A stretch of 64,000 nt of DNA from an uncultured Candidatus Saccharibacteria bacterium (GCA_964353135.1 CAYGTV010000001.1:87138-151137); one strand, 5' to 3'. Shown: positions 24,185-53,816, counted from the first letter of the stretch. A program made the numbers and translations. Notes: generated by a model from the letters alone, not told the origin.

Positions 24185-24190
24185 ACGTAT

Positions 24191-26143: not shown

Positions 26144-26164
26144 CCGTGCATAGAGTTGTCGTAA

Positions 26165-26686
<522 letters not shown>

Positions 26687-26689
26687 TAT

Positions 26690-27055
26690 ATGGAAACCAA
26701 AGCATTACTAGAAAAAATAATTGCTAGTCAGGTAGAAGCTGTATCTGCAATCGAAGCTGAAGTACAAGCTGCTGTATCTGCAATCGAAGCTGAAGTACAA
26801 GCTGCTGTAGCTGTTATTGAAACAGACGCACAAGCAGTAGCTGAAAAAGCAGCAGCTCAAATCAGTCGGGCTACCTTGGCGCAAGCTAGGCAGTCTGGTT
26901 CCCTGGCCGTACAAACTGCTAGACGGGCAGCGTTTGATGACATCATGGCAGCAGCCAAGCAAACAGTTGCTGGTGATGATGCAGTTGCTGCACGAGCGTT
27001 TGACGACAAGCGTGCGCAGCTTGAGCTGCATCTAGCTGGACAACTTCCTGCATAA
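26690..27055 (+). CDS. A/V-type ATPase stalk subunit, E-like but short
   Basis: A 121-aa Ala-rich helical protein in the E position. It contains a perfect 33-bp tandem duplication (26742-26807). Confidence 0.45.
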   Translation: METKALLEKIIASQVEAVSAIEAEVQAAVSAIEAEVQAAVAVIETDAQAVAEKAAAQISRATLAQARQSGSLAVQTARRAAFDDIMAAAKQTVAGDDAVAARAFDDKRAQLELHLAGQLPA

Positions 27056-27060
27056 TAATT

Positions 27061-28044
27061 ATGAACACGTCGTATATCTACAGCGCCTCAAGAGTCACCA
27101 CTCTTAGTCAAGAACTACTCTCAAAAACCGACATTGATCGGTTGTTGGTAGCGACTCCTGGTCAGCGACTGACTGGCGCCCTCAAAGAAACATATCTGGC
27201 GCCATATTTGCTCCAGGTTCCAAATGAGGATATGGCAGCAGCGATTGAATTAACACTAATCGAGGCTCAATCGTTGATTTCAAGTATCGCGCCTGATAGT
27301 GCTCAGTTTGCGGTGCTGTGGGTGCAATACGACATTCATAATTTGCGAGTGTTGGCCAAAGCTACCGCAACTGAGATGACTACAGAGCAGCTAGCTGATT
27401 ATTTCTCACACCGTGGCTCGTATGAACCGGCAATACTAGCTCAGTATGCGAGAGAGGAGTCACTCAGTAATTTGCAGCCTGGTTGGCAGGAATCATATAA
27501 CAAAGCGGTTGAACTGGTTGCAGCCGGTCAACTTGATGCTGTTGATGCGGTGTTTGATGCTTTGGTGTTGTCTGCGATGGTGCAGATTGCCACCGCTGCC
27601 AAAGACCCATTTATTACCAAGTATGCTCAGGCCGTGATAGATATGCACAATATCAAATCAAACCTGCGTTCACTAAAATTGGGAGGCAAAATTGGTCGAC
27701 CGGCACATGCCGCGGGTGGAACTATTTCTGCTGACAGACTGAGTGATGTGGGTCAGATTGCTGGTGTTTTAGAGTGCTTAGCACCAGGACATTTCACTAG
27801 TGCACTCGAGCAGTACCAGCTAGACGGTCATACTACAGTGCTAGATGCTCGTTTTGATGAGTATCTGATCAAGCTCGCTCACGAAGCTCGAATTGATATG
27901 TTTAGTGCAGCGTCAATCGTTGCGTACTACTTGCACGTGCGACAGTCTGCTACCAACGTCCGTACAATTGTAGTTGGTCTAGAGAGTGGGCAGGAGGCTG
28001 ATGTTATTCGACCAAATATTCGTATGTCTTATGTCACTAACTAA
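27061..28044 (+). CDS. A/V-type ATPase subunit C (d)
   Basis: 327 aa, helical, in the operon position between E and F. Confidence 0.7.
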   Translation: MNTSYIYSASRVTTLSQELLSKTDIDRLLVATPGQRLTGALKETYLAPYLLQVPNEDMAAAIELTLIEAQSLISSIAPDSAQFAVLWVQYDIHNLRVLAKATATEMTTEQLADYFSHRGSYEPAILAQYAREESLSNLQPGWQESYNKAVELVAAGQLDAVDAVFDALVLSAMVQIATAAKDPFITKYAQAVIDMHNIKSNLRSLKLGGKIGRPAHAAGGTISADRLSDVGQIAGVLECLAPGHFTSALEQYQLDGHTTVLDARFDEYLIKLAHEARIDMFSAASIVAYYLHVRQSATNVRTIVVGLESGQEADVIRPNIRMSYVTN

Positions 28045-28393
28045 CAAAAAAACGAGTGCATACAAAATTGCAATTATCGGCCCAGCAGACATGGTGTCAG
28101 GATTGCAAGCATTAGGTGTGGAGGCACATAACGCTACTAATCCAGCTGAAGCGCTTGAGCAGCTGCGAGCAATCAAGAAAATCAACAGCGATCTAGAAGA
28201 CAATCGAACCTACGCTGTGGTCTGTGTGATTGACGATGTGTTGAAAGACATCGACCAGACAGAATACGCCAAAGCAATTGAAGGGGCGCTGCCGGCAGTT
28301 GTGGTATTGCCTGGACCAGCTGGTTCAAGCGGAGTTGCAATTGAGCGACTGCGACTCTTGGCACAAAAAGCCGTTGGGTCATCCCTCATATAG
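28031..28393 (+). CDS. A/V-type ATPase subunit F
   Basis: KIAIIGPADMVSGLQALGVEA matches the subunit F N-terminal pattern. The ATG at 28031 overlaps the subunit C stop by 14 nt. Confidence 0.6.
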   Translation: MSLTNKKTSAYKIAIIGPADMVSGLQALGVEAHNATNPAEALEQLRAIKKINSDLEDNRTYAVVCVIDDVLKDIDQTEYAKAIEGALPAVVVLPGPAGSSGVAIERLRLLAQKAVGSSLI

Positions 28394-28503
28394 AAGCCGA
28401 GTTCAGAAACTTTGGCAGCAGCACAAAAAACTATTTTAGGTTGCTGCCAGAGTTTCTGGGAAGAAAATTATTACCAAGGAAGATTACAAAAGAAACTATT
28501 ATT

Positions 28504-30282
28504 ATGACTGAAGATCAAAAAGCGGGAGAAATCATCCGCGTCACTGGACCGCTTGTTCGGGCAACTGGAATGAGTACAGCTAAACTGTACGAGGTTGTAC
28601 GCGTGGGTGAGGAAAAGCTCATGGGTGAAATCATTGAGCTACACGGCGAAACAGCCGCTATCCAGGTATATGAAGAAACTGCAGGAATCGCTCCAGGTGA
28701 CCCGATTTATCTAACTGGACGAACTATGTCAGTGGCTCTAGCTCCAGGGTTACTTACTTCTATTTATGATGGGGTGCAGCGACCACTAGCAACTATCGAA
28801 GAAGCAGCTCAAAGTCCGTACATTAAACGAGGGATTGAAGCTGATCCTATCGACATGTCAAAGACGTGGGATTTTAAACCAACTGTACAGGTTGGTGATA
28901 CGGTCGGCGAAGGTGATGTATTGGGAACTGTTCAAGAAACGACTGTGATCGAGCACAAAGTGATGGTGCCTCCGGGAATGTCAGGGACTGTTGAGTCTAT
29001 CGAATCAGGTTCAAAAAATGTCACTGAAACCATCGCTGTAATCAAAACAGACGAAGGTTCAGTCTCTGTTGCCATGCTGCAGTACTGGCCAATTCGTGTT
29101 GCTCGTCCAAAAGCTAAAAAAATCTTCCCAAGTACACCACTTCGAACTGGTGGTCGTTCAATCGACACATTCTTCCCAATTGCTAAAGGTGGAGCTGGGT
29201 GTATTCCTGGACCATTTGGGGCTGGTAAAACAGTGACCCAGCAAAGTATCTCTAAATACTGTGATGCACAAATCATCGTATACATCGGTTGTGGTGAACG
29301 AGGAAACGAAATGACAGAAGTGTTGACTGAATTCCCACACCTAGTTGACCCAAACACTGGGGAGCCATTGATGAAGCGAACCATCCTCATCGCTAACACC
29401 TCAAACATGCCAGTAGCTGCGCGTGAGGCTTCTGTATATACAGGAATCACTATCGCAGAATACTACCGAGACATGGGATACCATGTTGCGCTAATGGCTG
29501 ACTCGACTTCACGTTGGGCAGAAGCGATGCGTGAAATTTCAGGACGTCTAGAGGAAATGCCAGGTGAAGAAGGCTACCCAGCGTACCTATCATCACGAAC
29601 AGCAGAATTCTACGAACGAGCTGGAATGGTCAAAGCGCTTGGCTCAGAAGGACGAGAAGGTTCACTAACTGTAATCGGTGCGGTATCGCCTCCGGGGGGA
29701 GACCTCTCTGAACCAGTGTCACAGTCAACCCTACGTGTGACCAAGACTTTCTGGTCACTTGATGCTGGGCTAGCGTACAAAAAGCACTTCCCAAGTATTA
29801 ACTGGCTTACGTCATACTCACTCTACGCCCCAAACTTTGAAAAGTTCTGGGCCGAAGAAGTAGCACCTGACTACAGTGAATACCGAACCAAGGCTATCGA
29901 ACTACTTGGGCGAGAAGCGTCGCTGTTGGAAATCGTACGATTGGTAGGTATGGAATCACTTTCTAACGAAGAACGACTGGTGATAGAAGTAGCACGTATG
30001 CTACGAGAAGACTTCCTGTTCCAGGACGCCTTCTCACCAGACGATGCCTACACACCACTTGATCGACAGTATGGAATGTTGAAATCAATGATGACATTTT
30101 TTGAAGCCGGATTGCCAGTGGTAACCACTGAAGACTTTGATTTTTCTACATTTTCAAAGATCGATTCATACGCCCAAGTTGCAACTTTGAAAGATCAGTT
30201 GAAATGGACCAAAGAAGACTTTGCGACTTTCCAGGACAAGATTCGAAGTGAGATTACTAGCCTAGTAGCTAACGCTGCCTAA
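28504..30282 (+). CDS. A/V-type ATPase catalytic subunit A
   Basis: P-loop GPFGAGKT, a non-homologous insert region and Walker B. The ATG at 28504 ([13 protein letters not shown]) was chosen. Confidence 0.85.
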
Positions 30283-30292
30283 CTCCAAAAAT

Positions 30293-31690
30293 ATGAGTAA
30301 AGAATACAAAACAGTTTCTGATATTGCCGGACCACTAATGATTGTGGAGGGTGTTGAAGGAGCAGCCTATGAAGAACTGGTAGAAGTGATGGTTCCAGGT
30401 GAAAAAGCACCTCGATTTGGAAAAGTACTCGACACGAGTAAAGGACGAGCGGTAGTGCAGATGTTTGCACCAACAGCAGGCATGACCACTGAAAACACGT
30501 CAGTGCGTTTCAAAGGTGAAACACTTAAACTGGGTGTGAGTTCAGACATGCTCGGTCGGGTGTTTACCGGAACTGGTGAAGTGGCGGACGGTGGACCAGC
30601 GATTATTCCCGAAGAACGTCGAGACATCGCCGGAGACCCAATGAATCCGTACTCACGTGAATTCCCGGATGACTTTATCCAAACGGGGATCGGTTCAATT
30701 GACGTAATGAACACGCTAGTGCGTGGGCAGAAACTACCGATTTTCTCTGGAGCTGGGTTACCACATGCTCGCCTTGCGGCTCAGATCGCTCGTCAGGCAA
30801 CCGTGAAAGACGGGGCAGAGTTTGCGATTGTGTTTGGAACCCTCGGAGTTTCATTTGAAGAAGCGGAATACTTCCGTCGAGAATTTGAAGAAGCTGGAGC
30901 GCTAGAACGATCAGTGCTATTCATCAACACCGCAGCCGACCCAGTGGTTGAACGTATCTCAACACCGCGTATGGCACTCACAACAGCGGAATACCTCGCG
31001 TTTGAAAAAGGGATGCACGTACTCGTCATCCTGACTGATATGACCAACTACTGTGAAGCCCTGCGAGAAGTCTCAGCTGCTCGAAAAGAAGTTCCAGGAC
31101 GTCGTGGATACCCAGGGTATCTATACACCGACCTTTCTACTCTCTATGAACGAGCTGGAGCAGTGAAAGGGAAAGAGGGGACTATTACCCAAATCCCAAT
31201 TCTCTCAATGCCGGACGACGATAAAACGCACCCGGTACCAGACCTTACTGGTTACATCACAGAAGGGCAGTTCGTGATCTCACGAGAGTTGTTCGGTAAA
31301 GGAGTGTTCCCGCCAGTGGATGTACAAGGTTCACTGTCACGACTCTGGTCAGCCGGAGTAGGGGAAGGAAAGACCAGGGCAGATCACAAAAACCTCAAAG
31401 ACCAACTCTTTGCGTCATACGCCACTGGTCGAGAAGTAAAAGAGCTTGCAGTGGTACTCGGTGAAGCATCACTCGATGCAACTGACCTTGCGCACCTTAA
31501 ATTCGCTGATGCGTTTGAACGAGAATTCGTTGGGCAAGGTGAATACGAAAACCGATCTGTGGAAGAGTCACTCGACAAAGGTTGGGAGTTGCTAAAAATG
31601 CTGCCACGAACGTCACTCAAACGAGTAAAACCAGCTGAGATTGACCAGTACATCGGTAAAGAGGAGGTTAATGAAGAAGCTGCTGCATAG
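30293..31690 (+). CDS. A/V-type ATPase subunit B
   Basis: 465 aa with a degenerate P-loop region, typical of the B subunit. Confidence 0.85.
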
Positions 31691-31692
31691 TC

Positions 31693-32331
31693 ATGGCTAT
31701 TCTAAAAGTTAACCCAACCCGAATTGCATTACTTGGACTCAAGAAAGAGCTCAAGACAGCCAAAAAGGGTCACAAACTACTCAAAGACAAGCGAGACGGA
31801 CTCGTGAAGAAATTCATGGCGGTTATTTATGAAGCCAAAGCAGTTCGTGAGAGCGTCGAAGCGCGCCTTGGTTCTGCGTTTGATTCATACACCCGAGCGA
31901 GCGCAATGACCAACGCAGCGTCACTTGATACGGCATTTTTGGCACCCAACGCCAAGATCGACCTAGACGTGAAAATTAAAAACGTGATGTCAGTGAAAAT
32001 TCCTGAGTTCCAAATCACTAAATCAGGGTCAGCCTTTTCGTACGGGATGCTTGAAACAACCGGTGACCTCGACAACGCAATGGTTAAATTTGATGAAGTA
32101 TTTGTCGACATTCTGAAATTAGCAGAGTTAGAAAAAACGGCTGAAAATTTAGCTGAAGAAATCGAAAAAACCCGGCGACGTGTGTCAGCGCTCGAAAACG
32201 TCCGTATCCCGAACTTTGAAGAGACAATTAAGTTCATCACCATGCAGTTGGATGAGCGCAACCGTGACGCTGTCGTTTCAACTATGCGAGTTAAGTCCAT
32301 GATTGTAGCTAAAGAAGAACAAACAGCTTAA
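31693..32331 (+). CDS. A/V-type ATPase subunit D
   Basis: A 212-aa coiled coil that is the last gene of the operon. Confidence 0.8.
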   Translation: MAILKVNPTRIALLGLKKELKTAKKGHKLLKDKRDGLVKKFMAVIYEAKAVRESVEARLGSAFDSYTRASAMTNAASLDTAFLAPNAKIDLDVKIKNVMSVKIPEFQITKSGSAFSYGMLETTGDLDNAMVKFDEVFVDILKLAELEKTAENLAEEIEKTRRRVSALENVRIPNFEETIKFITMQLDERNRDAVVSTMRVKSMIVAKEEQTA

Positions 32332-34518: not shown

Positions 34519-34833
34519 TCATAGATAAATCTCTATGATGTCAAATATTATATAGGGTTCGCGCCCAGTGTTCTCGGCTACATGTGTGCCGTCGGACCAA
34601 TAACATTTGAGGCCATTGGTTATTGTTGGAGGTTCGTCCCCTCCGAATTTCCAAGATTCAAACGCTCCACACTGTGGACAGGAATGAGCCTCATCATAAC
34701 TACATTCTCCTGTCTCCCCATCAGCACAAGCGTTTGTGTGTTCCCAAACAGTCTCGCAATCGGGACACTTATGTTTGTGAAATCGCTTGCCTGAGCATCC
34801 GACGTTAGAATTTCCGATTTCGAATTTGCTCAT
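34519..34833 (-). CDS. Cys-rich zinc-ribbon protein
   Basis: Contains CPDC...C...C...CPQC pairs in 104 aa. Confidence 0.45.
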   Translation of the reverse strand: MSKFEIGNSNVGCSGKRFHKHKCPDCETVWEHTNACADGETGECSYDEAHSCPQCGAFESWKFGGDEPPTITNGLKCYWSDGTHVAENTGREPYIIFDIIEIYL

Positions 34834-35092: not shown

Positions 35093-35166
35093 AGAGCGGT
35101 CCTTTTCTGAAAGTGTCCAGTGCTTATTGATTAGAATTATACATTAAATATAAGTTTTGTCAACCA

Positions 35167-36033
35167 CTAACCAAAACTCTGGCTTGCGACGAGTCTCCCG
35201 GTTGTAATATCAAAAAGTGCCACACCAAGTTGTTCGGTTTTGGCGGTTTGCTGTAGTTGTTGCTGGGTGAACTGTAAAGCAGCGGTAGCAAAAGCATCAG
35301 CATCGGCCGCGGTCACTGCTTTTATAAACGTGGCGTCACTGGTGAGTTGGTCAGATACAATATGGTTGTGAGTTCCGGTAGCGTTTTTCCAGACCCGCTT
35401 GTGGGGGCTCGAGGCTGCGAAGCCTTGATTGAGGAGGGTGGTTTTGGCGATTCCAGTTCCTGGTTTGATTGGGTGCTCGAGGAAAATAGTAATTGGTTCA
35501 CCGGCATTGTGAGTGACGTACATGTCACCACCTCCATTAATTAAAAATTGCTCTAGGTTCAGTGTCTGCTGTAGTTCCTTTGCAATCAGATCAATCAGAT
35601 AGCCCTTACCAAATCCACCAAGATCAACGTTGCCGTGTTTGAGCTCAATCAACTCGGAAGTGATTGTAAGGTCTGTGATCGGATTTCCGGCTGTTTGCGT
35701 AGTTTCGTTAGCACTGAAGCTATAGTCAGCGTCATAGCCCTTAGACTCTAGAATATGACCTGTCAGAAGGTTGAAATAGGTGTCCGAGCGAAGGTATAAG
35801 TGCTTGCCATATTCGAGGAGTTGTACAAATTCTGGAGAGGGATTTTGAAAACTCCTTTCACGATTCAGGATAGAAATTTGTGAGTCGGATTGAAACCTAG
35901 AATACTTTTTCTCATAAGCTGACGCAAAAACCTCGACGAAGTTTGTAACTTCGTCGAGGTTTTTGCTTGAGAGGTTTTCAAATAGTTCAATCCACCACGT
36001 GGTACCAAGAGCCTCAAATGAAAACTTCATCAC
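35167..36033 (-). CDS. ApbE-family FAD:protein FMN transferase
   Basis: The LGGFGKGYLIDLIAKEL region matches the ApbE pattern (dlGgiaKGyavD). Confidence 0.65.
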   Translation of the reverse strand: MMKFSFEALGTTWWIELFENLSSKNLDEVTNFVEVFASAYEKKYSRFQSDSQISILNRERSFQNPSPEFVQLLEYGKHLYLRSDTYFNLLTGHILESKGYDADYSFSANETTQTAGNPITDLTITSELIELKHGNVDLGGFGKGYLIDLIAKELQQTLNLEQFLINGGGDMYVTHNAGEPITIFLEHPIKPGTGIAKTTLLNQGFAASSPHKRVWKNATGTHNHIVSDQLTSDATFIKAVTAADADAFATAALQFTQQQLQQTAKTEQLGVALFDITTGRLVASQSFG

Positions 36034-36036
36034 GGG

Positions 36037-36579
36037 TTAGAGTTGGGCTCGGATCTCGGCGACAGCTTCGTTAAAAGCATTTGAGGTAAGTGATGCTCCG
36101 CCTACTCGTGAAAGTTCAATAGTATTGACGTCTTTTCCAATTACTTCTGCTGCGTATGCATTGTCAAAACTACTGTGCTGGGGAGTTCCAGCTGCACCCC
36201 CGTCGTAGGTGACATTAGCATCAACAATAGTTGTTCCGTCTAGTTCAAGCGTTACCCCGATGTCGTGCTCAACACGACGAGGAGTAAAGTATGAAGCTTC
36301 TGCTACATAACTCTCGCTTGGAGCCGCTACTGCTTCTGGTGTTACAGTCTCATCGATCATAATATCTGACTCAGCCTCGATTGTGGCAGAATCAGCACCT
36401 GGAGTTAGTGAAGGTGGCTGTTCGGTCGGTGGGGTGTAACCTTCGGGTAGAGTGTTTTCAGTGTCGGCTTCAATGCGAGCTGTTTCTTCTAATACAGCGG
36501 GTGCTTCAACTGGTTCTCGGAATAATAGTAGTGCTCCAGCAGCGACCACGATAATAACAAAAGCGATAATATACGGCAT
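36037..36579 (-). CDS. membrane-anchored FMN-binding domain protein
   Basis: N-terminal TM. The C-terminus ...LSRVGGASLTSNAFNEAVAEIRAQL matches the FMN_bind domain (vSGAT-TS). It ends 4 nt upstream of the ApbE gene. Confidence 0.6.
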   Translation of the reverse strand: MPYIIAFVIIVVAAGALLLFREPVEAPAVLEETARIEADTENTLPEGYTPPTEQPPSLTPGADSATIEAESDIMIDETVTPEAVAAPSESYVAEASYFTPRRVEHDIGVTLELDGTTIVDANVTYDGGAAGTPQHSSFDNAYAAEVIGKDVNTIELSRVGGASLTSNAFNEAVAEIRAQL

Positions 36580-36624
36580 AAATAAATGGAATTACAATTT
36601 AAAAAGTTTATACTAGTATAAAGT

Positions 36625-38220
36625 ATGATCACAAACATTTCCAGGACAATCTCTTATATCTTTGCACTACCTAACCGTCTGACTGACAAAGTCGGTATGT
36701 ATCGGCTGGTGACGTTATCTTTACTGTTTATTCTAGGCTGCTCGTTGCTCGCGAGTGCGACCGGTCAGTTGTTTTACTCAGTTGGGGCTCAGCTGGTGTC
36801 CGTTTCACTCGCGGTGGGTATCGCACTCGCTCTCAATGTGTTGTGTGCAAAAGTATGGCATGTGCACGCTAACCACGAGTCAGCTGTAATCACTGGTTTG
36901 ATTCTGTTTTTCTTGGTGGGCCCAAAAGTGTCGCTCGAAGCAAATATTGCCCTGATGGCAGCGGTCGCCATTGCGGTGCTTTCTAAATTTCTAATCACGT
37001 ATCGCAAGCAACATATATTTAACGCCGCTGCGTTTGGAGCGGTCGCTGTCGCGGCTGGGGTGTGGGTCTACAACGTATTTTCAGGATCATCGTATAACAC
37101 CGATATCTTTGGTTGGTGGGTTGCCAATCCAGTCTTGTTCTGGCCGGTCTTGTTGCTGGGTATTTTGATAGTTTCAAAAATCCGCCGCTGGGCAATGGTT
37201 GGGTCTTTTATCGTTGTTGGTTTACTAGTGTTTTTGATTGAAGAATATCGGTTTGGTGCCCTTGCCTGGGAATCATTCCCACTGTATCTAGTGTCATATC
37301 CAACGTTGTTCTTGGCATTCTTTATGCTGACAGAACCGTTTACCATGCCGCCTCGCACCAGGCATCAGGTCATGTACGGCGCCCTGGTTGGGGTACTTTC
37401 AAGTACGGCGCTGTTCGCTCCGTGGTTGGCGATGACACCTGAGTTAGCGTTGATTATGGGTAACACATTTGCGTATACCTTTAGGATTAGACGAAAGCTA
37501 TTTCTCAAGCTGCAATCAAAACGAGAGATTGCCACCAACACCTGGGAATTCACATTTTCAAAACCGGCTGATTTTAACTTTGAGGCCGGGCAGTACGTCG
37601 AGTGGATGCTCCCACATCAGAAAACTGACACTCGAGGCCCTCGGCGCTATTTCACCATCGCTTCCAGTCCAACTGAGTCAGTCATTAGATTGGCATTGAA
37701 AGTGGTTCCAAGCTCTAGTGATATGCGTAGTAGTACTTACAAACAAGCCTTACTAAACTTAGATGAAGGCGAAGAGATTATTGTAAGTCAACTGGCGGGC
37801 GATTTTGTCCTACCAAAAGACACTAGCACTAAACTAGGCTTTATTGCCGGAGGAATAGGAGTCACACCGTTCTCGAGTCATTTGTCTTGGATGAAGGATA
37901 GCGGTCGTCACTACGACACTCGCTTGTACTACTGTTGCAACACCATGTCAGAATTGGCTTTCCTAGATGAGTTTGAAAAAATGAGTGACAGCATGCCGGT
38001 GGTTACAATCCCTGTCATTGCTAAAGAAGAAGTGAATCCACCAAACGAACGAGGGTTTCTAGCCGCTGAAATGTTAGCCAGAAGAACTCCTGATTTTAAA
38101 CAGCGAACCTGGTATATCTCTGGTCCACCCGGCATGGTCAACGCGTACAAAAAACTCCTCCGCGAAGCTGGCGTTCCAAAGAAGCAAATTCACACTGACT
38201 TCTTCCCAGGACTTGCGTAA
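36625..38220 (+). CDS. fusion of a polytopic membrane domain with a C-terminal FNR-like FAD/NAD(P)-binding oxidoreductase
   Basis: The C-terminal half has RYFTIASSP (the RxY[ST] FAD motif), GGIGVTP (NAD motif) and a GPPGM-like end. The N-terminal ~300 aa has about 8 TM segments. Confidence 0.65.
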   Translation: MITNISRTISYIFALPNRLTDKVGMYRLVTLSLLFILGCSLLASATGQLFYSVGAQLVSVSLAVGIALALNVLCAKVWHVHANHESAVITGLILFFLVGPKVSLEANIALMAAVAIAVLSKFLITYRKQHIFNAAAFGAVAVAAGVWVYNVFSGSSYNTDIFGWWVANPVLFWPVLLLGILIVSKIRRWAMVGSFIVVGLLVFLIEEYRFGALAWESFPLYLVSYPTLFLAFFMLTEPFTMPPRTRHQVMYGALVGVLSSTALFAPWLAMTPELALIMGNTFAYTFRIRRKLFLKLQSKREIATNTWEFTFSKPADFNFEAGQYVEWMLPHQKTDTRGPRRYFTIASSPTESVIRLALKVVPSSSDMRSSTYKQALLNLDEGEEIIVSQLAGDFVLPKDTSTKLGFIAGGIGVTPFSSHLSWMKDSGRHYDTRLYYCCNTMSELAFLDEFEKMSDSMPVVTIPVIAKEEVNPPNERGFLAAEMLARRTPDFKQRTWYISGPPGMVNAYKKLLREAGVPKKQIHTDFFPGLA

Positions 38221-40908: not shown

Positions 40909-43900
40909 ATGGCATCCTTGATGGGAAACAACGCCAGGTCCTGGTTATATAAATTCTGCTCCTTTGTGCTGGTCTTTACGCTGCTGTCAGCGGATTTGTT
41001 CGTGGTATTAGAACGGGGATTTTTTATCGCGTCACAAGCGGAAGCTGCGGTCGGAGACTTTTCTGTTTTTCGTGAGACTACCGGTACCGAAGTGATCGCG
41101 GGAACTGGTAATAATGTCTCGTGGGATACCTCAGTTGCTGCAAGTGCCAACATTGCACTGCAGGCAAACACGAGTGATATTGACTTAGCAGATGGAGGAA
41201 AGTATCTAGTTTTGTACAATTCGTGGACGCATGAAGGATCCACCGGTGGAGCCAACCGACGCTCAGTCGCATCGTATGTGGCTGTCAACGGGAGTGCTAG
41301 TGAGTATGGTTGGGGTGGTGGATACATCCGCGATGCCGAAAATGATTTTAATGCGTATAACAGCGGTGCGGCAATCCTAGACGTAACAGCAGGCGATGAT
41401 ATTACGGTGGTGCTTGATCGGGATGACTCCAACCCTGGCGGTGGAACTGCTATCAGAGGGGGAACTAACGGGGTGAGTATTCTCAAACTTGATGATGACC
41501 TTGATTATCTTCGAGTCCATTCTAGTGCTGGTGTAAGTGACATCAGTAGTAATACGTCCTTTAATGTTGTTGATTGGGATACGGCTGATGAGGTTGATGC
41601 GGGTTCATTCACCTTTGCCGCACCAGCTTCGGGTGTGGTCGTGAAGGGCGCGACCGACCAGAAGTTTTTGGTTACCAGTAATGTAAAACTAAATGTGACT
41701 GGCGGTGGTGGTCCACGCCAAAATTATGAAATGCGCCTGACTCTGGATGGGGTTGAGGTGCCAGGTACCCGCAGTACAGCGTATCTACGGTTTGACAACG
41801 GAGATGTTAATTCAACTTTGCAATACACCGGGATTATTCAGAAAACCAGTGCTGCTGACCAAACTCTTGCAGTCGAGGTGCGGCGTGAGGGACAAGCTGC
41901 AGCCACTACCGCTATCGTTGGTGATCAGACTGCTTTAGCTATCGCTGCGTTACCGGCAACCGCGCAGGTACTCTCGCTTACGACAACGGCTGACGAAAGC
42001 CTCACCAGTGCACCGAGCACCATGTCGTTTGGTAGTCAGCTATCAACCGCGTCAAGCTTCCTGAGTCATTCAACCACAACCGCCTCTGACAACATTGTGG
42101 TAGACACAGCTGGTAACTATTTAGTCTTGGCCACAACTTACACGTCTCGGATATCTGGAAACGGACGAGATGTGCCGCGGATCGACTGGCGCTTGGACGG
42201 CAGTACTCAGCCGTACGGTGGACACGGTCACTACAACCGAGGTGATGAAGGGACCGAAGACACCTACACCAGTGGTGGATCGAGCGGTGCCATTTTCCCG
42301 TCGCTTACCAGCGGTCAGATCATCGAGCTAGCGCAAAGTGACGAAACTTCTGGTACGCCGGTGTCAGATTTTCCCGCCGGCCGGGTAGCGGTCCAGGTTG
42401 TAGAATTGTCGGAGTTGATCCCGCAAACTTCTACGGACGTATCGGTTAACGGATCACAAGTAGCCACCCTGGCACCAAACACAAGCAATGTGAATTTAGG
42501 TGAGCAATTTGTAATTTCTGAAAACAATGGTGCGCGCAATGTAACCAACATCACGTTGTCAGAAGACGGAACAATCGCGGCTGACACTGGTCTAGCAAAC
42601 ATCAGACTCTACTACGATTTGGACACCTCGGCGCCCTATGATTGTACTAGCGAAAGTTACGTTGGCACGGAGAACCAATTTGGTGCGACGTCGACTTTTA
42701 GTGGTGCAGACGGATCGGTATCATTTACTTCCAGTGAAACAATTAGCCCCACACAATCGATGTGCTTGTATGTGGTGGCTGACGTAACCGCAAGTGCCAG
42801 TGATGGTCAAACCGTGAATGTGTTCATTGCTAGTCCAGCTACTGACGTGGTTGTCACTGCTGGCGGCACAGTTAGTCCGGTTAGTAGTGTTGGCAATTCA
42901 GCGTCAACTATCACTGACGCCGAAATCACTCAGACCAACTATCATTGGCGAAATGATGATGGTAGTGAAACTGGTGCCACATCAGCCACCGGTGGAATTG
43001 AAAACACCCCCGGTCTAGCGTTTGCCGCTGCTACTCCACAACGATTACGTATCGGTGTCGCAGGAGAAGGAACTGGAACCGAAGTGAATTCATACCGGTT
43101 AGAATTTGCTGAAAAAATTACCACCTGTGATGCAGCAACTGGCTGGGAGTCGGTGGATACAGTGGGTGGAGCGTGGGACGTATTTGATTCGGTAAACCTA
43201 ATTGAAGGTGGAAACACAACTAATATTGCCGAGGTTGACGGCGGGGTGTCAGATGGAACGGGAACGTTTGTGACACCAAACGGTGGAGTACGTGATGCCA
43301 CATCGCAAACTGCGGCGCTTTCGATTACAGCCGATGATTTTACCGAACTCGAATACTCAATCCAGGCGACCGGTGCTGCGATTGAAGGGCTAGCATACTG
43401 TTTTAGAGTGACCGATGCTGGCTCTCCACTGCGAGCGTACACAAACTACCCAGAGGCGACCCTTAGTGCAGATGTGACTGTGGCTGCTAGTGGAAGCTAT
43501 ATAGCAAGTGTAGTTGCTGGGGCAACCGATGTGTACCTCGGTGGGCAATTTATTGCTGTCAGCAATAGTGGTAACCATACTCTTACCGAAATTATTTTGA
43601 CCGAGGTTGGTACCCTCGACGCCGGACAGTACCTCACTAATCCACGCTTGTACTACGAAGGGGATGCAACTAATCCTCGTGACTGTGCCAGTGAGTCTTT
43701 TGATGGTCTCGAAACAATCGCGGCAGGAACAGCCTTTACAGATGCTAATGGAACGACAACCTTTACCGTGAGTAGTCCGGTGCGGACCAATGAATCGTTT
43801 TGTGCGTACATCGTTGTTGATGTGGCTGATACAGCTCCAGATAGTGAAACAATCACGTTTGAAATTAGTACCCCTAACACCGACCTGACTATCGCTGGAG

Positions 43901-46900
43901 CAACCATTGGTCCAGGTAGTGCCGTTGCACCAAGTGGGTCGGTGATTGTGAATGCTCCTTCGCTCACCCAGGGTAATTACCACTGGCGAAACGACGACGG
44001 TACCGAAACTGGTGCTAGTTCAGCCACTGGTGGGGTAGAAAATACGCCAATGAATGGTGTGTTACAAGAGTCGCAGCGCCGATTACGTTTAGCAGTATCA
44101 AACGATGGAAATGCTGATGCGGTAGGGACTGACTTACGGCTAGAGTACGGGACAAAAGTAACTACTTGTGAGAACGTCGGTTCGTGGGAACGGGTAGACA
44201 CCGGGGTGGCATTTGATATGGATGTTACCTCACAACTGGTGCAAGGAAATGATACGACCGATATCCTAGAAGGTGACGGTGGCGTAAATAATCCAAACAC
44301 CTTCCTTTCACCAAACAGCGCTCAGCTTGAAACAGTTGATCAGCTGACATTAGCAACATTAACCAATACACAGTACATCGAGCTCGAGTATGCACTGGAA
44401 ATAACTGCAGCGTCAGCTTTTAGTGCGACGTATTGTTTCCGCCTGACTGACGCTGGGGTACCATTGTCCACCTACACCAATTATCCTGAGTTAACCATCC
44501 AAGATCGACAAGATTTCATCGTACAGCGCGGAACCGAAACAGTTAGCGGAACCGGAGTGACGCTGACTGCGGGAGTAGATTATGTTGCACCAGCTTCTAA
44601 TTCTGCAGCTTTTGTACGGATTACCAATACTAGTATGACTGGTGCTGGAAGTGATACACTTGGGCAAACCAGGGTACCTGAAGATGTCTTTGCTTACATC
44701 GAAGGGGGTGATAATCTCACTACTAGTTTCTCGATTGTTCGACCTCCAGCTGCGACGGACAATACCCGAGTGTCTTGGGAGATTGTTGAATACATAGGCA
44801 TAACTGGTGCTGATAATGAGTTTATCTTGCGGGATGCTGGTACGGTGACGTATGGCACCTCTGCACTGTTTGCAACCGGCACACCGGTAGTTGGGATTGC
44901 TGATGATAATGACGTCGTTGTATTTATCACCGGCCAGTACAACCCTGATGGTAACGTAAACAACTACAATACCGGATTATCGATCTCTAGCTGGGATACG
45001 ACTGGAGACCAGCCAGTATTTGAACGTGGTGACGCCGACGGGGTAGCCGCTCGAGTGAGTTACGCTGTGGTCGAATTCACCGGTGCTAGTTGGGCAGTAC
45101 AGCGAGCACAACATACATTTACCGCCGCTGGGGTAGCGGAGACTGAGTCAATCACAGCGGTTAATAGTTTACTAAGGACCTTTGTCCATGCGCAAAAAAT
45201 ATCCGGCGATGAGTTGTTTAACCTCGATGAGAGCGGGCATGAGGTCTGGTTATCAAGCATTGGTGCGGTGTCTTTCCAGCTCGAGAATGGTGCTACTAAC
45301 CCAGGTCAGCAAACGTCAGTAGCGTGGGTAGTTGAAAACACTCAGATTGGTGATGGCTCCATGATGGTGTACCGGTCAAATGGTCTCATTGCCCAAGGAG
45401 GAGTACAGCCGATAACTACAGTGTTAGGGATCGGGGGGACTATTCGTCCAAGCAACGCATCGCTATGGGCAACCAACCGCAGTACCGGGGGTGGATCTGC
45501 ACATCCTCGGGCGTTACTGGGAGCAACCATCTTGAATGAGACTCAATATGAATTGTGGAAGAGTGATGAGGGGCAGAACCAAAACTTCCGGGTCGAGATC
45601 GTTGAGTGGCCAGTGGCAGAAACATCTATCCGTCAGGCGGTCTACCGACTATATGCCGACAACGATGCGTTGACACCAACTGATCCTTGGCCTGCAGGTG
45701 CTAATGACTTGGGTGAAAATACACCGATGACCGATATTGATGAACCACTTGGTGAGGGTGAACAAACCCGTATCCGTATGAGTTTGTTTATTAACAACGC
45801 GACGCTGATATCAGATAGTACCAGTTTTAAACTGCAGTACGGCAGACGTGTGACTACGTGTTCGGCGGTTAGTACCTGGGATGATGTCGGACCAAGTGGA
45901 AGCGGTAGTGTGTGGCGGGCGGTTGATGCCACTCCAGTTGGTGGCACCGAGCTACTTGGTGGTGCATCGTTACTACTCTCGGTTTCAGATGTAGCAGGTA
46001 CCTACGAAGAAAACAGTCCGTCGGCAGTTAACCCAAACACGGTAGATATTGGTGAGTATGTCGAGTATGACTGGATTGTAGAAAATAACGCAGCCATCCA
46101 AAAAAGTAGCTATTGCTTCCGGATGACGGAAAGTGATGGGGCAGTGCTTGATGGGTATGACGTGTATCCAACGGTGCGAACCTCTGGTTACACTCCTGTG
46201 ATCGAAAACTGGCGTTGGTACGATGATGAAGGAAGTTTGACTCCAACGGTCGCACTGGCTGGTGAAAATGTGGCACCAAGTGCGCTCCAAAATGGGTCTG
46301 AGGTTAAACTACGTGTGTCTGTGACTGAGGTCGAGGGAGCGCCAGGCGAAAATGTTAAATTCAACTTACAATACTCAGAATACCCAGACTTCCGAGTTGC
46401 TTCAACTGTTAATGCAACCACTTCGTGTGATGGGAATGATTTGTGGTGTTACGTCGATGGGGCTGGGAATGACAACCAAACGCTTGATGCTACCGTACTT
46501 TCTGGGGTTGATAGTTGTGCGGCTGGAGTTGGGAATGGTTGTGGGACTCACAATGAGGCGGAGGGTATTTCTGGACTATACGATCAACCAGCCTTTTCTA
46601 TCTCTGAACATGAATTCACCTTGCGGCACGACGGGGCGCGGGTTAATACGGTGTATTACTTCCGCTTGTTTGATGCTACTAATGGAGTCCCACTTTTTGC
46701 AAGTACCTCGTTTCCAAGTGTGACAACAGAAGGTGCAGTTCTTACCTTTACCGTCAGTGGTATTGATGCTGGCCAGACAACAGAAGGAATTATCACTGAT
46801 GCAACTACGACTGCCAGTGGAGTAAATTTCGGGTCACTTACTATGGACACAGACACTGAAGCTGCCCAACGACTGACAGTATTTGCAAACGGTACACAGG

Positions 46901-47439: not shown

Positions 47440-47511
47440 TCCGACGTAGCTCAGCGGTAGAGCAGTTGACTGTTAATCAATTGGCCGCAGGTTCGAATCC
47501 TGCCGTCGGAG
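47440..47511 (+). tRNA. tRNA-Asn (anticodon GUU), no encoded CCA
   Basis: The cloverleaf was folded by hand. Acceptor TCCGACG/CGTCGGA, D-arm GCTC-AGCGGTA-GAGC, anticodon arm GTTGA-CTGTTAA-TCAAT, T-arm GCAGG-TTCGAAT-CCTGC and discriminator G. Confidence 0.85.
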
Positions 47512-47547: not shown

Positions 47548-48003
47548 ATGCTAGGTTTTTCTTGTATACTGGTAAATATGGAAATTAGAAACTACAATCC
47601 AGAAACTGATTATCCAGGCATTGAAGCCCTTTTGAGTGCCGAGGGTACTTTTGGTGGTCAGTTTGATGAAGCTAGAGATACTAAAGAGCGAATCGATGCT
47701 TTAGAAAGTACCAAACCAGGTAGTGTTCTAGTAGCAGAAGAGGATGGAGAGATCCTGGGCACAGTGACGCTTTTTGAAGATGGTCGATCTGCTTGGCTCT
47801 ATAGGTTTGCAGTCCAGCAAGACAATGAGACTGAAATAACAAAGCTTCTCAATGAAAAAGCTCTTCAGACAATGAAAGATCGTGGACATACTCAAGTTTT
47901 AGTTTACGCTCCCACTGGCGATCGACACTTTGAAGACCGATACACTTCACTTGGTTTTAATAAAGGAGGTGATTACACTGCCTACTGGCAAGATATTGTA
48001 TGA
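47548..48003 (+). CDS. GNAT-family N-acetyltransferase
   Basis: Acetyl-CoA-binding core of a GNAT (ILGTVTL...AWLYRFAVQQD...). The protein is ~140 aa if started at the ATG at 47578. Confidence 0.55.
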   Translation: MLGFSCILVNMEIRNYNPETDYPGIEALLSAEGTFGGQFDEARDTKERIDALESTKPGSVLVAEEDGEILGTVTLFEDGRSAWLYRFAVQQDNETEITKLLNEKALQTMKDRGHTQVLVYAPTGDRHFEDRYTSLGFNKGGDYTAYWQDIV

Positions 48004-48139
48004 AATCAGAAAAATTAATCTGCAATAGTTCGAATATTACCTATGACAAGGGTTACATAGCTCTTTGGTGTAAAGAATATGATCTACCAGACACTGTAGA
48101 AATTGATGGTGATACACTGCTTAAGAAAGACCATTTAGT

Positions 48140-48802: not shown

Positions 48803-48804
48803 CT

Positions 48805-49458: not shown

Positions 49459-49583
49459 GAGCGAGTATTTGTATATCAGACTCAATTGAACGCCAATTGA
49501 TTGTTCGAAAAGCTTCCAACTGGCAGAGCCTTTGTAAAGAAAAGTGAAGTAACACCCTGATGCTCCTTTAAAACTAGAGGGTT

Positions 49584-52614: not shown

Positions 52615-52616
52615 AT

Positions 52617-53796: not shown

Positions 53797-53816
53797 TTTT
53801 GGTATGATTAGAATAT

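What the first reader, a model, noticed from the sequence alone, without database searches (positions are those of the whole stretch)
35167..38220. Extracytoplasmic flavinylation module: ApbE flavin transferase, membrane-anchored FMN-binding protein, and a membrane-domain/FNR-like reductase fusion
ApbE (35167-36033) and an FMN_bind-domain protein (36037-36579) are adjacent and co-oriented. They lie divergent from a 531-aa protein that joins a ~300-aa polytopic membrane domain to an FNR-type FAD/NAD(P) oxidoreductase domain (RYFTIASSP, GGIGVTP). This resembles the flavin-based extracellular electron transfer or NQR/RNF-like respiratory modules, which is unexpected in a very small genome that otherwise shows little respiratory machinery. 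The identity of the membrane domain (ferric-reductase-like, RnfD-like, or novel) could not be resolved by eye.
Basis: partly seen in the sequence, partly recalled or inferred. Interest (0 to 1): 0.55.

Follow-up and report, generated by a model that had tools for sequence, protein, structure and literature searches.

The report
Nqr/Rnf-like flavin electron conduit, CPR
These three genes form a small, already-catalogued but never experimentally tested "Nqr/Rnf-like" system that probably passes electrons from NAD(P)H across the membrane to a flavin-carrying protein outside the cell, and the enzyme meant to attach that flavin has no export signal in this genome or in about 70 related ones.

Summary
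ApbE (35167-36033, -), a membrane-anchored FMN_bind protein (36037-36579, -) and a 531-aa fusion (36625-38220, +) are all real. The unresolved membrane half is RnfD/NqrB-like: it passes the Pfam PF03116 cut-off, and the top 15 solved-structure matches are all RnfD or NqrB chains. It is not ferric-reductase-like or a transporter.

This is the published "NQR/RNF-like system" (Méheust 2021; Huang 2024), reported mainly from Actinobacteria and CPR. It is therefore a new member of a known, computationally defined kind, and it is not unexpected in a small genome. The organism groups with Parcubacteria/Paceibacteria.

Likely mechanism (inferred): NAD(P)H → FAD → non-covalent flavin in the RnfD-like domain → FMN on Ser163 of the tethered outer subunit → unknown acceptor.

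My own results:
- NqrB's covalent-FMN loop is deleted.
- The motif is the variant S-R-V-G-G-A-S-L.
- About 70 of 70 cluster-linked ApbEs across phyla lack any signal peptide or TM segment, although their targets carry signal anchors or lipoboxes. The papers I read do not address this.
- Nearly all CPR FMN_bind homologs listed carry no Pfam annotation, so Pfam-based surveys would miss them.

No Ndh2 or EetAB genes occur in the window.

The parts
36625..38220 (+). 531-aa fusion protein: RnfD/NqrB-like membrane domain plus FNR-type FAD/NAD(P)H reductase domain
   Evidence: Pfam PF03116 38.3 bits and PF00175 41.9 bits, both above cut-off. AF2 model pLDDT 89.6, pTM 0.85. More than 120 full-length homologs at 50% identity or higher.
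36625..37497 (+). RnfD/NqrB-like domain (aa 1-291), 10 TM helices, N-in and C-in
   Evidence: Domain-only AF2 model pLDDT 95.1, pTM 0.91. The top 15 Foldseek PDB hits are all RnfD or NqrB chains, E=4.5e-6 to 1.5e-3, TM-score on the query 0.53-0.67. Profile hits RnfD 8ahx_D at 1.1e-6 and NqrB 7xk3_B at 1.2e-4. Positive-inside pattern over 73 homologs.
37060..37095 (+). Clade-specific 12-aa insertion (aa 146-157, VWVYNVFSGSSY) leading into outward loop 5, at the position where NqrB/RnfD carry their covalent-FMN loop
   Evidence: NqrB residues 211-272 collapse to about 13 profile positions. The insertion occurs only in the window's clade. Its SG(S/A)S-like part is variable, whereas the following NTDIF is conserved.
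37327..37344 (+). LTEPFT motif (aa 235-240) at the cytoplasmic end of TM8; E237 aligns with NqrB D346 in the MATDP motif
   Evidence: E237, P238 and P242 are invariant across phyla. Alignment to NqrB.
37498..38220 (+). FNR-type reductase domain (aa 292-531) with RYFTIASSP (FAD) and GGIGVTP (NAD(P)H) motifs
   Evidence: PF00175 E=1.8e-10 and weak PF00970. Foldseek top hits are GcoB, flavohaemoglobin reductase modules, NqrF and Fpr. Closest solved sequences are MmoC 1.9e-13, NqrF 1.5e-11 and GcoB 1.1e-10.
36037..36579 (-). 180-aa NqrC/RnfG-like FMN_bind subunit: TM anchor (aa 3-20), acidic Pro-rich tether of about 65 aa, C-terminal FMN_bind domain
   Evidence: PF04205 19.2 bits, below the cut-off of 22. 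15 of 23 family members hit PF04205. Anchor KD 2.71. Anchor and motif are highly conserved in 119 CPR homologs.
36091..36093 (-). Codon of Ser163, the predicted FMN attachment site in S157-R-V-G-G-A-S163-L
   Evidence: G161, S163 and L164 are invariant in 23 subtype-B proteins. The site aligns with the Thr of SGAT in the solved FMN-binding domain 8p2a. GGAS occurs in 113 of 119 clade members.
35167..36033 (-). 288-aa ApbE-family FAD:protein FMN transferase, leaderless and predicted soluble
   Evidence: PF02424 E=5.8e-28. It aligns with the Salmonella and E. coli ApbE structures through GKGY, the His of H-I-V and the ADAxxT motif. A stop codon lies 2 codons upstream in frame. Maximum KD(19) is 1.03, so no TM segment.
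36580..36624 (.). 45-bp divergent intergenic region with the perfect palindrome TATACTAGTATA (36609-36620), read as two overlapping -10-like TATACT boxes, one per strand
   Evidence: Sequence. The 22 nt before the fusion ATG are identical in the 88% relative L081, while the rest of the spacer diverged. The minus-strand promoter-like site uses this TATACT. The overall count of promoter-like sites is not above shuffles, so this is suggestive only.

Best explanation
This is a complete three-gene Nqr/Rnf-like flavinylation system in a Parcubacteria-group (CPR) bacterium.

The 531-aa protein is a single-polypeptide transmembrane electron conduit. Its cytoplasmic FNR-type domain oxidises NAD(P)H; the closest solved relatives are enzymes I know as NADH-dependent. 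It passes electrons through FAD to a non-covalently bound flavin in the 10-helix RnfD/NqrB-like domain. This domain has lost the loop that carries covalent FMN in true RnfD and NqrB.

The 180-aa partner is anchored by one helix and carries an NqrC/RnfG-like FMN_bind domain on a long acidic tether outside the membrane. FMN bound covalently to its Ser163 would occupy or visit the vacant outward flavin site of the RnfD-like domain. It would then pass electrons to an acceptor that is still unknown. ApbE installs that FMN from FAD.

The net effect is one-way export of reducing equivalents, giving a fermentative, quinone-poor organism a way to regenerate NAD(P)+ or to feed an extracytoplasmic reductase.

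Shown here: domain identities, folds, topology, motif conservation, gene linkage, loss of the RnfD flavinylation loop, and absence of an export signal on ApbE.

Inferred: the cofactors, the direction of electron flow, the acceptor, and where and when flavinylation occurs.
For: - Domain and fold identity.
- It matches the published operational definition (a PF03116+PF00175 fusion in a cluster with ApbE and FMN_bind), and the published model proposes the same path.
- The three genes are linked in 68 of 80 loci across CPR, Chloroflexota, Actinomycetota, Alphaproteobacteria and Spirochaetota, and are usually overlapping.
- The RnfD-like domain is almost always fused to FNR: 543 clusters at 50% identity with E<=1e-10, and most of the top 150 are 480-530 aa.
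- Topology places FNR inside and loop 5 outside.
- The NqrB T236 region is deleted.
- The partner has an invariant Ser in a G-(A/S)-S-L motif, and carries export signals in other lineages, including lipoboxes in Actinomycetota.
- The ApbE residues that align with the cited catalytic Asp, Ser and His are retained.
- ApbE subtype co-varies with the target motif type.
Against: - No experiment exists for any member of this family.
- ApbE is leaderless and soluble here and in about 70 of 70 relatives. Flavinylating an exported domain therefore needs an unproven step, such as modification before or during export.
- The window clade's anchor has no K/R before the helix and usually one Arg after it, so its orientation is less certain than in other lineages.
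- The motif departs from the canonical D-x-x-[S/T]-G-A-[S/T] at two positions.
- No candidate acceptor is conserved next to the cluster.
- I could not model the complex or measure inter-cofactor distances.
Confidence: 0.6

Rival explanations
1. The system is ion-coupled. Like NqrB and RnfD in the Na+ pumps, the RnfD-like domain conducts Na+. The pair would then be either a minimal redox-driven Na+ pump or a module that uses the Na+ gradient made by the adjacent V-type ATPase to drive electron flow uphill or inward.
For: - The membrane domain is a homolog of the NQR/RNF subunits.
- The acidic residue aligned with NqrB D346 is invariant, as E237.
- The cluster lies next to a V-type ATPase whose c subunit best matches the E. 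hirae Na+-ATPase NtpK and keeps L/S/Q/Q/E at what I recall as the Na+-ligand positions.
- A Na+/H+ exchanger is also in the window.
- Synteny with the ATPase is kept in the 88% relative.
Against: - ATPase genes are adjacent in only 3 of 81 sources, so there is no general linkage.
- The NqrD/E (RnfA/E) subunits and the covalent FMN of NqrB, which are part of the coupled pathway in the real pumps, are absent.
- The TDP/TEP motif is conserved throughout the superfamily and is not specific evidence for Na+ transport.
- The Na+-ligand assignment rests on my memory of the NtpK structure.
Confidence: 0.12
2. In this clade the FMN_bind domain faces the cytoplasm through an N-out, C-in reverse anchor. 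It is flavinylated there by the cytosolic ApbE, and the trio acts as a membrane-tethered intracellular NAD(P)H:acceptor oxidoreductase rather than an exporter of electrons.
For: - ApbE is leaderless and soluble.
- The anchor starts at residue 3, has no K/R on the N side in 98% of 119 homologs, and usually has an Arg directly after the helix.
- Cytosolic ApbEs acting on cytosolic targets are known, for example the Klebsiella fumarate reductase.
Against: - Orthologous partners in other lineages have MKK-type signal anchors or lipoprotein signals, yet their ApbEs are also leaderless. Leaderless ApbE therefore does not imply a cytosolic target.
- The flank after the helix is strongly acidic, with a mean of 3.2 D/E in 15 residues, and the tether is Pro/Thr/Glu-rich, which is typical of translocated linkers.
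- The vacant flavin site of the RnfD-like domain is on the outer face.
- The published multimer model docks the partner there.
Confidence: 0.1
3. The cluster's ApbE-like protein is not the enzyme that flavinylates the exported partner. It would instead serve the cytoplasmic face, for example by hydrolysing FAD or delivering flavin to the RnfD-like or FNR domain, while another exported ApbE or no ApbE modifies the partner.
For: - The localisation mismatch occurs in about 70 of 70 loci.
- From my own knowledge, some ApbE/Ftp family members act as FAD pyrophosphatases.
- NCBIfam's ApbE equivalog model is missed by far, 23.7 against a cut-off of 498 bits.
Against: - The residues that align with the cited transferase catalytic residues are retained.
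- ApbE subtype co-varies with the target motif type, although shared ancestry could also produce this.
- ApbE lies directly after FMN_bind, with short gaps or overlaps, in nearly all loci.
- No second ApbE is found in the 64-kb window, and roughly 1-Mb genomes leave little room for a paralog.
- No conserved flavinylation-like motif exists on the cytoplasmic side of the fusion.
Confidence: 0.1
4. It is a Listeria-type flavin-based extracellular electron transfer locus, or a ferric-reductase/NOX-like enzyme.
For: - General resemblance: ApbE plus an exported FMN_bind protein.
- A membrane domain fused to an FNR domain resembles NOX. S. pneumoniae NOX appears in the fold hits, at query TM-score about 0.35-0.36 and rmsd about 17.5 Å, so the match does not extend to the membrane domain.
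Against: - No Ndh2, EetA/B, DmkA/B or FmnA among the window ORFs scanned.
- No Ferric_reduct Pfam hit.
- The membrane domain's only significant structural matches are RnfD and NqrB.
Confidence: 0.03

Closest known systems
Nqr/Rnf-like (NQR/RNF-like) flavinylation-associated system of Méheust et al. 2021 (eLife, PMC8238504) and Huang et al. 2024 (PMC10979944; AlphaFold-multimer model from Ktedonobacter racemifer)
   Same: - Same defining architecture: a PF03116+PF00175 fusion next to ApbE and an NqrC/RnfG-like FMN_bind protein.
- Same loss of the RnfD/NqrB flavinylated Thr.
- Same reported host range, including CPR.
   Different: - The window lineage has the fusion gene divergent from FMN_bind-ApbE, not in the usual co-directional operon.
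- It has a 12-aa insertion in the outward loop.
- It has the variant motif S-R-V-G-G-A-S-L.
- Its anchor lacks N-terminal positive charges.
- The text I could search in those two papers does not discuss ApbE localisation.
RNF complex subunits RnfD and RnfG (e.g. A. woodii 9eri, A. vinelandii 8ahx, C. tetanomorphum 7zc6)
   Same: The membrane domain shares the RnfD fold and the FNPA and TDP/TEP motifs. The partner is RnfG-like and has a C-terminal flavinylation motif.
   Different: - RnfA, B, C and E are absent.
- The RnfD covalent-FMN loop is deleted.
- An FNR domain is fused where RnfC would deliver or accept electrons.
- It scores 30-33 bits against a 207-bit cut-off for the NCBIfam rnfD model.
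Na+-NQR subunits NqrB, NqrC and NqrF (V. cholerae 7xk3, 8a1t)
   Same: NqrB-like fold, NqrC-like partner and NqrF-like FAD/NADH domain. The three modules together correspond to part of the NQR electron path.
   Different: - No NqrA, D or E.
- No 2Fe-2S domain on the reductase.
- The NqrB segment 211-272, which holds T236, is collapsed to about 13 positions.
- The reductase is covalently fused to the NqrB-like domain.
- There is no evidence of quinone reduction or Na+ pumping.
Listeria monocytogenes flavin-based EET (Ndh2, EetA/B, PplA, FmnB)
   Same: An ApbE-family enzyme plus a membrane-tethered extracytosolic FMN_bind protein proposed to hand electrons to external acceptors.
   Different: - The route across the membrane differs: an RnfD-like/FNR fusion here, against Ndh2, demethylmenaquinone and EetA/B in Listeria.
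- FmnB is an exported lipoprotein supplied with FAD by an ECF transporter (abstract of PMC9973259), whereas this ApbE is leaderless.
- None of those genes is in the window.
Cytosolic ApbE of Klebsiella pneumoniae, which flavinylates a soluble fumarate reductase (reviewed in PMC12052999)
   Same: An ApbE without a signal peptide.
   Different: Its target is cytosolic. Here the cognate target carries a signal anchor, or a lipobox in relatives.
Prokaryotic NOX / ferric-reductase-domain enzymes (e.g. S. pneumoniae NOX 8qt6)
   Same: They work alike in outline: one polypeptide joins a membrane domain to a cytoplasmic FNR module and moves electrons from NAD(P)H across the membrane.
   Different: The membrane domain is unrelated. 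NOX has a six-helix di-haem ferric-reductase domain; this protein has a 10-helix RnfD/NqrB fold and presumably uses flavin.

Membership tests
NQR/RNF-like flavinylation system (Méheust 2021 operational definition) | Protein with an N-terminal NqrB/RnfD domain (PF03116) | tested here: met
   38.3 bits (41.0 for the domain alone) against a cut-off of 27.7. The fold search returns only RnfD and NqrB chains as significant matches.
NQR/RNF-like flavinylation system (Méheust 2021 operational definition) | C-terminal NAD-binding domain PF00175 on the same polypeptide | tested here: met
   41.9 bits against a cut-off of 22, aa 406-509. FNR fold confirmed.
NQR/RNF-like flavinylation system (Méheust 2021 operational definition) | Encoded within five genes of an ApbE or FMN_bind gene | tested here: met
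   FMN_bind starts 45 bp from the fusion gene and ApbE follows it directly. The same trio occurs in 68 of 80 related loci.
NQR/RNF-like flavinylation system (Méheust 2021 operational definition) | [quoted passage not shown] | not testable with these tools
   SignalP is not available. FMN_bind has an N-terminal hydrophobic anchor (KD 2.71) but no obvious cleavage site or lipobox. ApbE has none.
NQR/RNF-like flavinylation system (Huang 2024 description) | The flavinylated Thr of RnfD/NqrB is not conserved in the RnfD-like subunit | tested here: met
   NqrB 211-272 corresponds to about 13 profile positions. The clade-specific insertion has a variable fourth position: S, T, D, N, A or Y.
NQR/RNF-like flavinylation system (Huang 2024 description) | Only two structural subunits, with no other Rnf or Nqr subunits in the cluster | tested here: met
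   No RnfA/B/C/E or NqrA/D/E hits among the neighbours or the other window ORFs scanned.
RNF or Na+-NQR complex proper | Multi-subunit operon (RnfABCDGE or NqrABCDEF) with a stand-alone RnfD/NqrB that passes the equivalog model | tested here: not met
   TIGR01946 rnfD scores 30-33 bits against a cut-off of 207, and RsxD 27-30 against 415. The other subunits are absent.
RNF or Na+-NQR complex proper | Covalent FMN on a Thr in the periplasmic loop of RnfD/NqrB | tested here: not met
   The loop is deleted and the replacement sequence is not conserved.
ApbE FAD:protein FMN transferase (PF02424) | Family profile match over the full domain | tested here: met
   E=5.8e-28, profile positions 1-259 of 266.
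ApbE FAD:protein FMN transferase (PF02424) | Catalytic and Mg2+/FAD residues (the Asp-Ser-His set and the GKGY segment cited in the review) | tested here: met
   The alignment to 3pnd and 4xgw keeps GKGY, the Ser in AASSP, the His in HNHIV and the Asp and Thr in ADAFAT. Residue roles are taken from the review. This rests on alignment only; no activity was tested.
ApbE FAD:protein FMN transferase (PF02424) | N-terminal signal peptide or lipobox, as in the typical periplasmic enzymes | tested here: not met
   An in-frame stop lies 2 codons upstream of the start. The Pfam domain begins at residue 9. Maximum KD(19) is 1.03. The same holds in about 70 relatives.
FMN_bind domain / NqrC-RnfG-like flavinylation target (PF04205) | Family profile match above the gathering score | tested here: inconclusive
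   The window protein scores 19.2 bits against a cut-off of 22. 15 of 23 close family members match at E<=0.01, best 1.6e-6. The profile's best PDB hit is the FMN-binding domain 8p2a at E=0.07.
FMN_bind domain / NqrC-RnfG-like flavinylation target (PF04205) | Flavinylation motif D-x-x-[S/T]-G-A-[S/T] | tested here: inconclusive
   The window has S-R-V-G-G-A-S. The G-A-S core and the acceptor Ser are kept, while D1 and [S/T]4 are replaced. This variant is near-invariant in 119 clade members. According to the review, D to A has minor effects and Ser is accepted. No experiment was done on this variant.
Listeria-type flavin-based EET | Membrane Ndh2 (the published operational marker), with EetA/EetB and quinone genes alongside PplA and FmnB | tested here: not met
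   None found among the window ORFs scanned. The rest of the genome could not be examined.
Ferric reductase / NOX family | Ferric_reduct (PF01794) haem-binding membrane domain | tested here: not met
   No such Pfam hit at E<=0.1. The membrane-domain fold matches RnfD and NqrB only.

The most novel reading that the evidence does not exclude
In the whole Nqr/Rnf-like family, flavinylation is a cytoplasmic event. A soluble, leaderless ApbE, with direct access to cytosolic FAD, would attach FMN to the C-terminal motif of the NqrC-like precursor before or while it is exported by Sec. The motif lies about 15-20 residues from the C-terminus, so it would be the last part to leave the cytoplasm. This would be a route to an extracytosolic covalent flavoprotein that needs neither an exported ApbE nor an FAD exporter. 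It would suit minimal CPR cells, and it runs against the accepted view that ApbE acts on exported targets only after export.
Probability: 0.3. Interest if true: 0.6.

Novelty: new member of a known kind. Interest (0 to 1): 0.4.

Why it matters
CPR bacteria are thought to be fermentative, with almost no electron-transport machinery. A two-subunit conduit from NAD(P)H to the cell exterior would give them a redox outlet, towards a host surface, metals, oxygen or an extracytoplasmic reductase. It is also far more common in CPR than Pfam- and SignalP-based surveys suggest. Nearly all of the 120 listed homologs of the FMN_bind subunit carry no Pfam annotation and are labelled hypothetical.

The system is also the simplest known relative of the NQR and RNF pumps, so it is a tractable model for how RnfD/NqrB-type subunits move electrons, and possibly ions, across a membrane.

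The consistent mismatch between a leaderless ApbE and an exported target is a concrete question that a few co-expression and localisation experiments could settle.

Tried and rejected
- **Read-through fusion of FMN_bind and ApbE.** In the window the two ORFs are in frame and separated by TAA plus one codon. Rejected, because they are not in frame in the 88% relative L081 (7953-7405 = 548) or in L001, and no fused ORF exists in any of the 80 loci.
- **The SGSS in the window's RnfD-like loop as a replacement flavinylation site.** Rejected, because the fourth position varies among close homologs.
- **Ferric-reductase or transporter identity of the membrane half.** Rejected.
- **A TM segment elsewhere in ApbE.** None found. 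The hydrophobic maxima are conserved core motifs.
- **A conserved neighbouring acceptor gene.** None found. The only recurrent neighbours look like a two-component system (about 15-20 of 80 loci) and a MacAB-like exporter (10-16 of 80), judged from N-terminal sequences only. None of these is in the window.
- **FMN riboswitch or other RNA element.** None; only a tRNA at 47440-47511.

Full report
**Observation.**
- ApbE (35167-36033, minus strand, 288 aa) matches Pfam PF02424 at E=5.8e-28 over nearly the whole profile.
- The 180-aa ORF (36037-36579, minus strand) has an N-terminal hydrophobic helix, an acidic Pro-rich stretch and a C-terminal FMN_bind match. That match is just below Pfam's cut-off, 19.2 against 22 bits.
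- The 531-aa ORF (36625-38220, plus strand) combines PF03116 (NQR2_RnfD_RnfE, 38.3 bits, cut-off 27.7) with PF00175 (41.9 bits, cut-off 22) and a weak FAD_binding_6 match.

NCBIfam agrees at family level. None of its equivalog cut-offs is approached: rnfD scores 30-33 bits against 207, and ApbE 23.7 against 498.

**The membrane domain.**
- A profile of the N-terminal domain from 20 sequences across phyla hits RnfD (8ahx_D, E=1.1e-6) and V. cholerae NqrB (7xk3_B, E=1.2e-4) among all PDB sequences.
- An AlphaFold2 model of the domain alone is very confident: pLDDT 95.1, pTM 0.91.
- Its 15 best Foldseek matches in the PDB are all RnfD or NqrB chains, with E=4.5e-6 to 1.5e-3 and TM-score on the query of 0.53-0.67. 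The next hits are Rh and urea channels at E>=0.26.
- The full-length model has pLDDT 89.6 and pTM 0.85. It shows the C-terminal half as a standard FNR-type module, closest to GcoB, flavohaemoglobin reductase modules, NqrF and Fpr.
- By sequence the nearest solved proteins are MmoC, NqrF, GcoB and BenC. To my knowledge these all use NADH. Nucleotide preference was not tested.

**Topology.** I combined the model's helix boundaries with K+R counts over 73 homologs. The N-terminus, loops 2, 4, 6 and 8, and the linker carry 0.75-3.3 K+R each. Loops 1, 3, 5, 7 and 9 carry 0.01-0.22. This gives ten helices, N-in and C-in, with the FNR domain in the cytoplasm and loop 5 outside.

**Loss of the RnfD/NqrB flavinylation site.** The profile aligns to NqrB residues 138-211 and 272-396. 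The roughly 60-residue NqrB segment between these, which holds Thr236, corresponds to only about 13 positions in this family. Thr236 is the covalent-FMN residue according to the literature cited. A PDB entry titled "NqrB-T236Y mutant" is consistent with its importance.

The window's clade has a 12-residue insertion there (aa 146-157). It includes "SGSS" in the window, but the fourth position is S, T, D, N, A or Y in close homologs, whereas the following "NTDIF" is conserved. I therefore do not regard it as a flavinylation site.

**What it is.** The architecture is the "NQR/RNF-like system" that Méheust et al. 2021 defined as a PF03116+PF00175 fusion within a flavinylation gene cluster. [quoted passage not shown]

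Huang et al. 2024 modelled the Ktedonobacter racemifer pair with AlphaFold-multimer. They noted that the RnfD Thr is not conserved. They proposed that the covalent FMN of the NqrC-like subunit samples the non-covalent flavin site of the RnfD-like subunit.

I found no experimental work on any member. The window meets every testable part of the definition.

**Organism.** The window's HisRS is closest to unnamed metagenomic proteins; the nearest named one is from Candidatus Kaiserbacteria at 68% identity. One FMN_bind relative is labelled Candidatus Paceibacteria. Named fusion relatives are Nomurabacteria, Parcubacteria and Patescibacteria. Related contigs reach about 1.05 Mb.

**Distribution and linkage.**
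- The exhaustive search with the membrane domain alone found 543 clusters at 50% identity with E<=1e-10. Nearly all of the top 150 are 480-530 aa, meaning they are fused to FNR.
- Of the 80 best loci, 68 carry FMN_bind and ApbE beside the fusion. The usual order is FMN_bind, ApbE, fusion, co-directional and with short gaps or overlaps.
- The window, its 88% relative L081 and the more distant L001 instead have the fusion gene divergent from FMN_bind-ApbE.

**The FMN_bind partner.**
- 23 relatives of the window's subtype align well, with invariant G161, S163 and L164.
- 15 of these 23 hit PF04205.
- The closest solved chain, the FMN-binding domain 8p2a, aligns its VSGATYTS with the family's VSGSSLTS in register. 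That hit is weak on its own, at E=0.07.
- Ser163 is therefore the predicted attachment site.
- In 119 clade members the motif S-R-(V/T)-G-G-A-S-L is nearly invariant, with GGAS in 113.
- The canonical motif is D-x-x-[S/T]-G-A-[S/T]. According to the 2025 review, D to A has minor effects, Ser is accepted, and a seven-residue tag is sufficient.

**Two subtypes.** Two subtypes co-vary across loci:

| ApbE subtype | Median length | ApbE N-terminus | Partner motif | Loci |
|---|---|---|---|---|
| A | about 248 aa | MGMPITVE | [S/T]GA[T/S] | about 41 |
| B | about 291 aa | FEAIGTxW | xG[S/A]SL | 23 |

The window is subtype B. Actinomycetota and several other CPR lineages also carry subtype B.

**The ApbE puzzle.** The window's ApbE begins 1-2 codons after the TAA stop of FMN_bind, in the same frame. 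The Pfam domain begins at residue 9. There is no room for a signal peptide.

In all of the roughly 70 cluster-linked ApbEs, the maximal ORF starts a few residues before the conserved MGMP or AIGT core. Where the maximal ORF extends further, the extension is not hydrophobic. The most hydrophobic 19-residue stretches are core motifs such as ADGLATALF, not TM helices. The window's maximum is KD 1.03, against 2.71 for the partner's anchor. The residues that align with the cited catalytic residues are retained.

The partners, in contrast, are clearly exported in most lineages. They have MKK-plus-hydrophobic signal anchors, or lipoprotein signals (LAGC[S/A]) in Actinomycetota.

Méheust et al. required a predicted signal on only one gene per cluster. 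Neither paper discusses where this ApbE resides. The review cites cytosolic ApbEs only for cytosolic targets.

A read-through fusion is excluded, because the in-frame arrangement is not kept in L081 or L001.

In the window's own clade the anchor is unusually conserved: MPY(V/I)IAFVIIIVAAGALLLF. It has no K/R before the helix in 98% of members and usually one Arg after it, followed by an acidic flank. Net charge still favours N-in and C-out, but less decisively than elsewhere. The conservation suggests the helix packs against the fusion's membrane domain.

I cannot resolve how a cytosolic ApbE serves an exported target. Three options remain: flavinylation before or during Sec export, another role for this ApbE, or a cytoplasm-facing partner in this clade.

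**Mechanism.** The best-supported reading is the published one. Electrons pass from NAD(P)H to FAD, then to a non-covalent flavin in the RnfD-like domain, then to covalent FMN on Ser163 of the tethered outer subunit, and finally to an unknown acceptor. The domain identities, topology, motif and linkage are shown here. The cofactors, direction and acceptor are inferred.

No acceptor gene is conserved nearby. The window ORFs I scanned contain no Ndh2, EetA/B, quinone or cytochrome genes. Only 64 kb of the genome could be checked.

**Ion coupling.** This cannot be excluded.
- E237 aligns with NqrB D346 and is invariant.
- The cluster lies beside a V-type ATPase operon whose c subunit best matches the E. 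hirae Na+-ATPase NtpK (E=4.7e-27). It keeps L, S, Q, Q and E at the positions I recall as Na+ ligands.
- However, ATPase genes are adjacent in only 3 of 81 sources, and the NqrD/E-type subunits are absent.

**Verdict.** This is a real, intact and well-conserved member of a known but experimentally untested system. It is ordinary for CPR according to the literature. Interest is moderate. It rests on the lack of any functional data for the family, on its under-detection in CPR, and on the consistent localisation mismatch between ApbE and its target, which is directly testable.

Noticed in passing
window 23867-32331 (+); c subunit 26201-26686: A complete V/A-type ATPase operon lies just upstream of the cluster. 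The 161-aa c subunit best matches the Enterococcus hirae Na+-ATPase subunit NtpK (2bl2, E=4.7e-27). It has L/S/Q/Q/E at the positions I recall as NtpK's Na+ ligands (L61, T64, Q65, Q110, E139), which suggests a Na+-coupled ATPase in a CPR bacterium. A Na+/H+ exchanger is at 1124-3217 (-).
   Followed up: partly
window 36609-36620 (intergenic region 36580-36624): A perfect 12-bp palindrome, TATACTAGTATA, lies between the divergent genes. The 22 nt before the fusion ATG are identical in the 88% relative L081, while the rest of the spacer diverged. It reads TATACT on both strands, which would make a compact bidirectional promoter and leave the fusion mRNA almost leaderless. It is absent from L001.
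   Followed up: partly
window 35136-35163 (-): A 12-of-12 match to the sigma-70 consensus, TTGACA-16-TATAAT, starts 4 bp after the ApbE stop. It points towards a Cys-rich 104-aa ORF (34519-34833, -; weak zinc-ribbon match) that is absent at this position in the 88% relative.
   Followed up: no
homologs P0390-P0508 of window 36037-36579: Nearly all of the 120 listed CPR homologs of the FMN_bind subunit have no precomputed Pfam domain and are labelled hypothetical. Pfam-based surveys would therefore miss the flavinylated subunit in CPR, which may explain the reported under-representation of flavinylation in CPR.
   Followed up: partly
loci L001-L080: Two co-varying subtypes of the cluster exist: a short ApbE with SGAT-type motifs, and a longer ApbE with xG(S/A)SL motifs. 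The second type is shared by Actinomycetota and several CPR lineages, including Saccharimonadales, whose known hosts are Actinomycetota. This hints at transfer between host and epibiont lineages. No tree was built.
   Followed up: no
loci L019, L030, L005 and others: In other lineages the cluster is often flanked by what look like a sensor kinase (about 20 of 80 loci), an OmpR-type response regulator (about 15 of 80) and a MacAB-like ABC exporter (10-16 of 80). A few loci carry what look like VIT1, MsrA or MsrB genes. These identities are judged from N-terminal sequences only, without a Pfam scan. None is in the window.
   Followed up: no
window 48000-54000: A low-GC stretch (0.37-0.39 against about 0.46 elsewhere) holds an unusual 751-aa fusion of a nucleotidyltransferase domain with a PLP-dependent decarboxylase (50359-52614, -) and a PHP-domain protein (52617-53447, -). 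It may be horizontally acquired.
   Followed up: no
window 40909-47256 (+): A 2115-aa ORF with an N-terminal hydrophobic segment and internally repetitive sequence has no Pfam match at E<=0.001. It is probably a giant surface protein of the kind common in CPR.
   Followed up: no
window 6269-7024 (-) and 62801-63106 (+): A membrane-anchored DsbA/thioredoxin-like protein and a glutaredoxin are encoded in the window. No DsbB or VKOR partner was seen among the ORFs scanned. Any link to the electron conduit is speculative.
   Followed up: no
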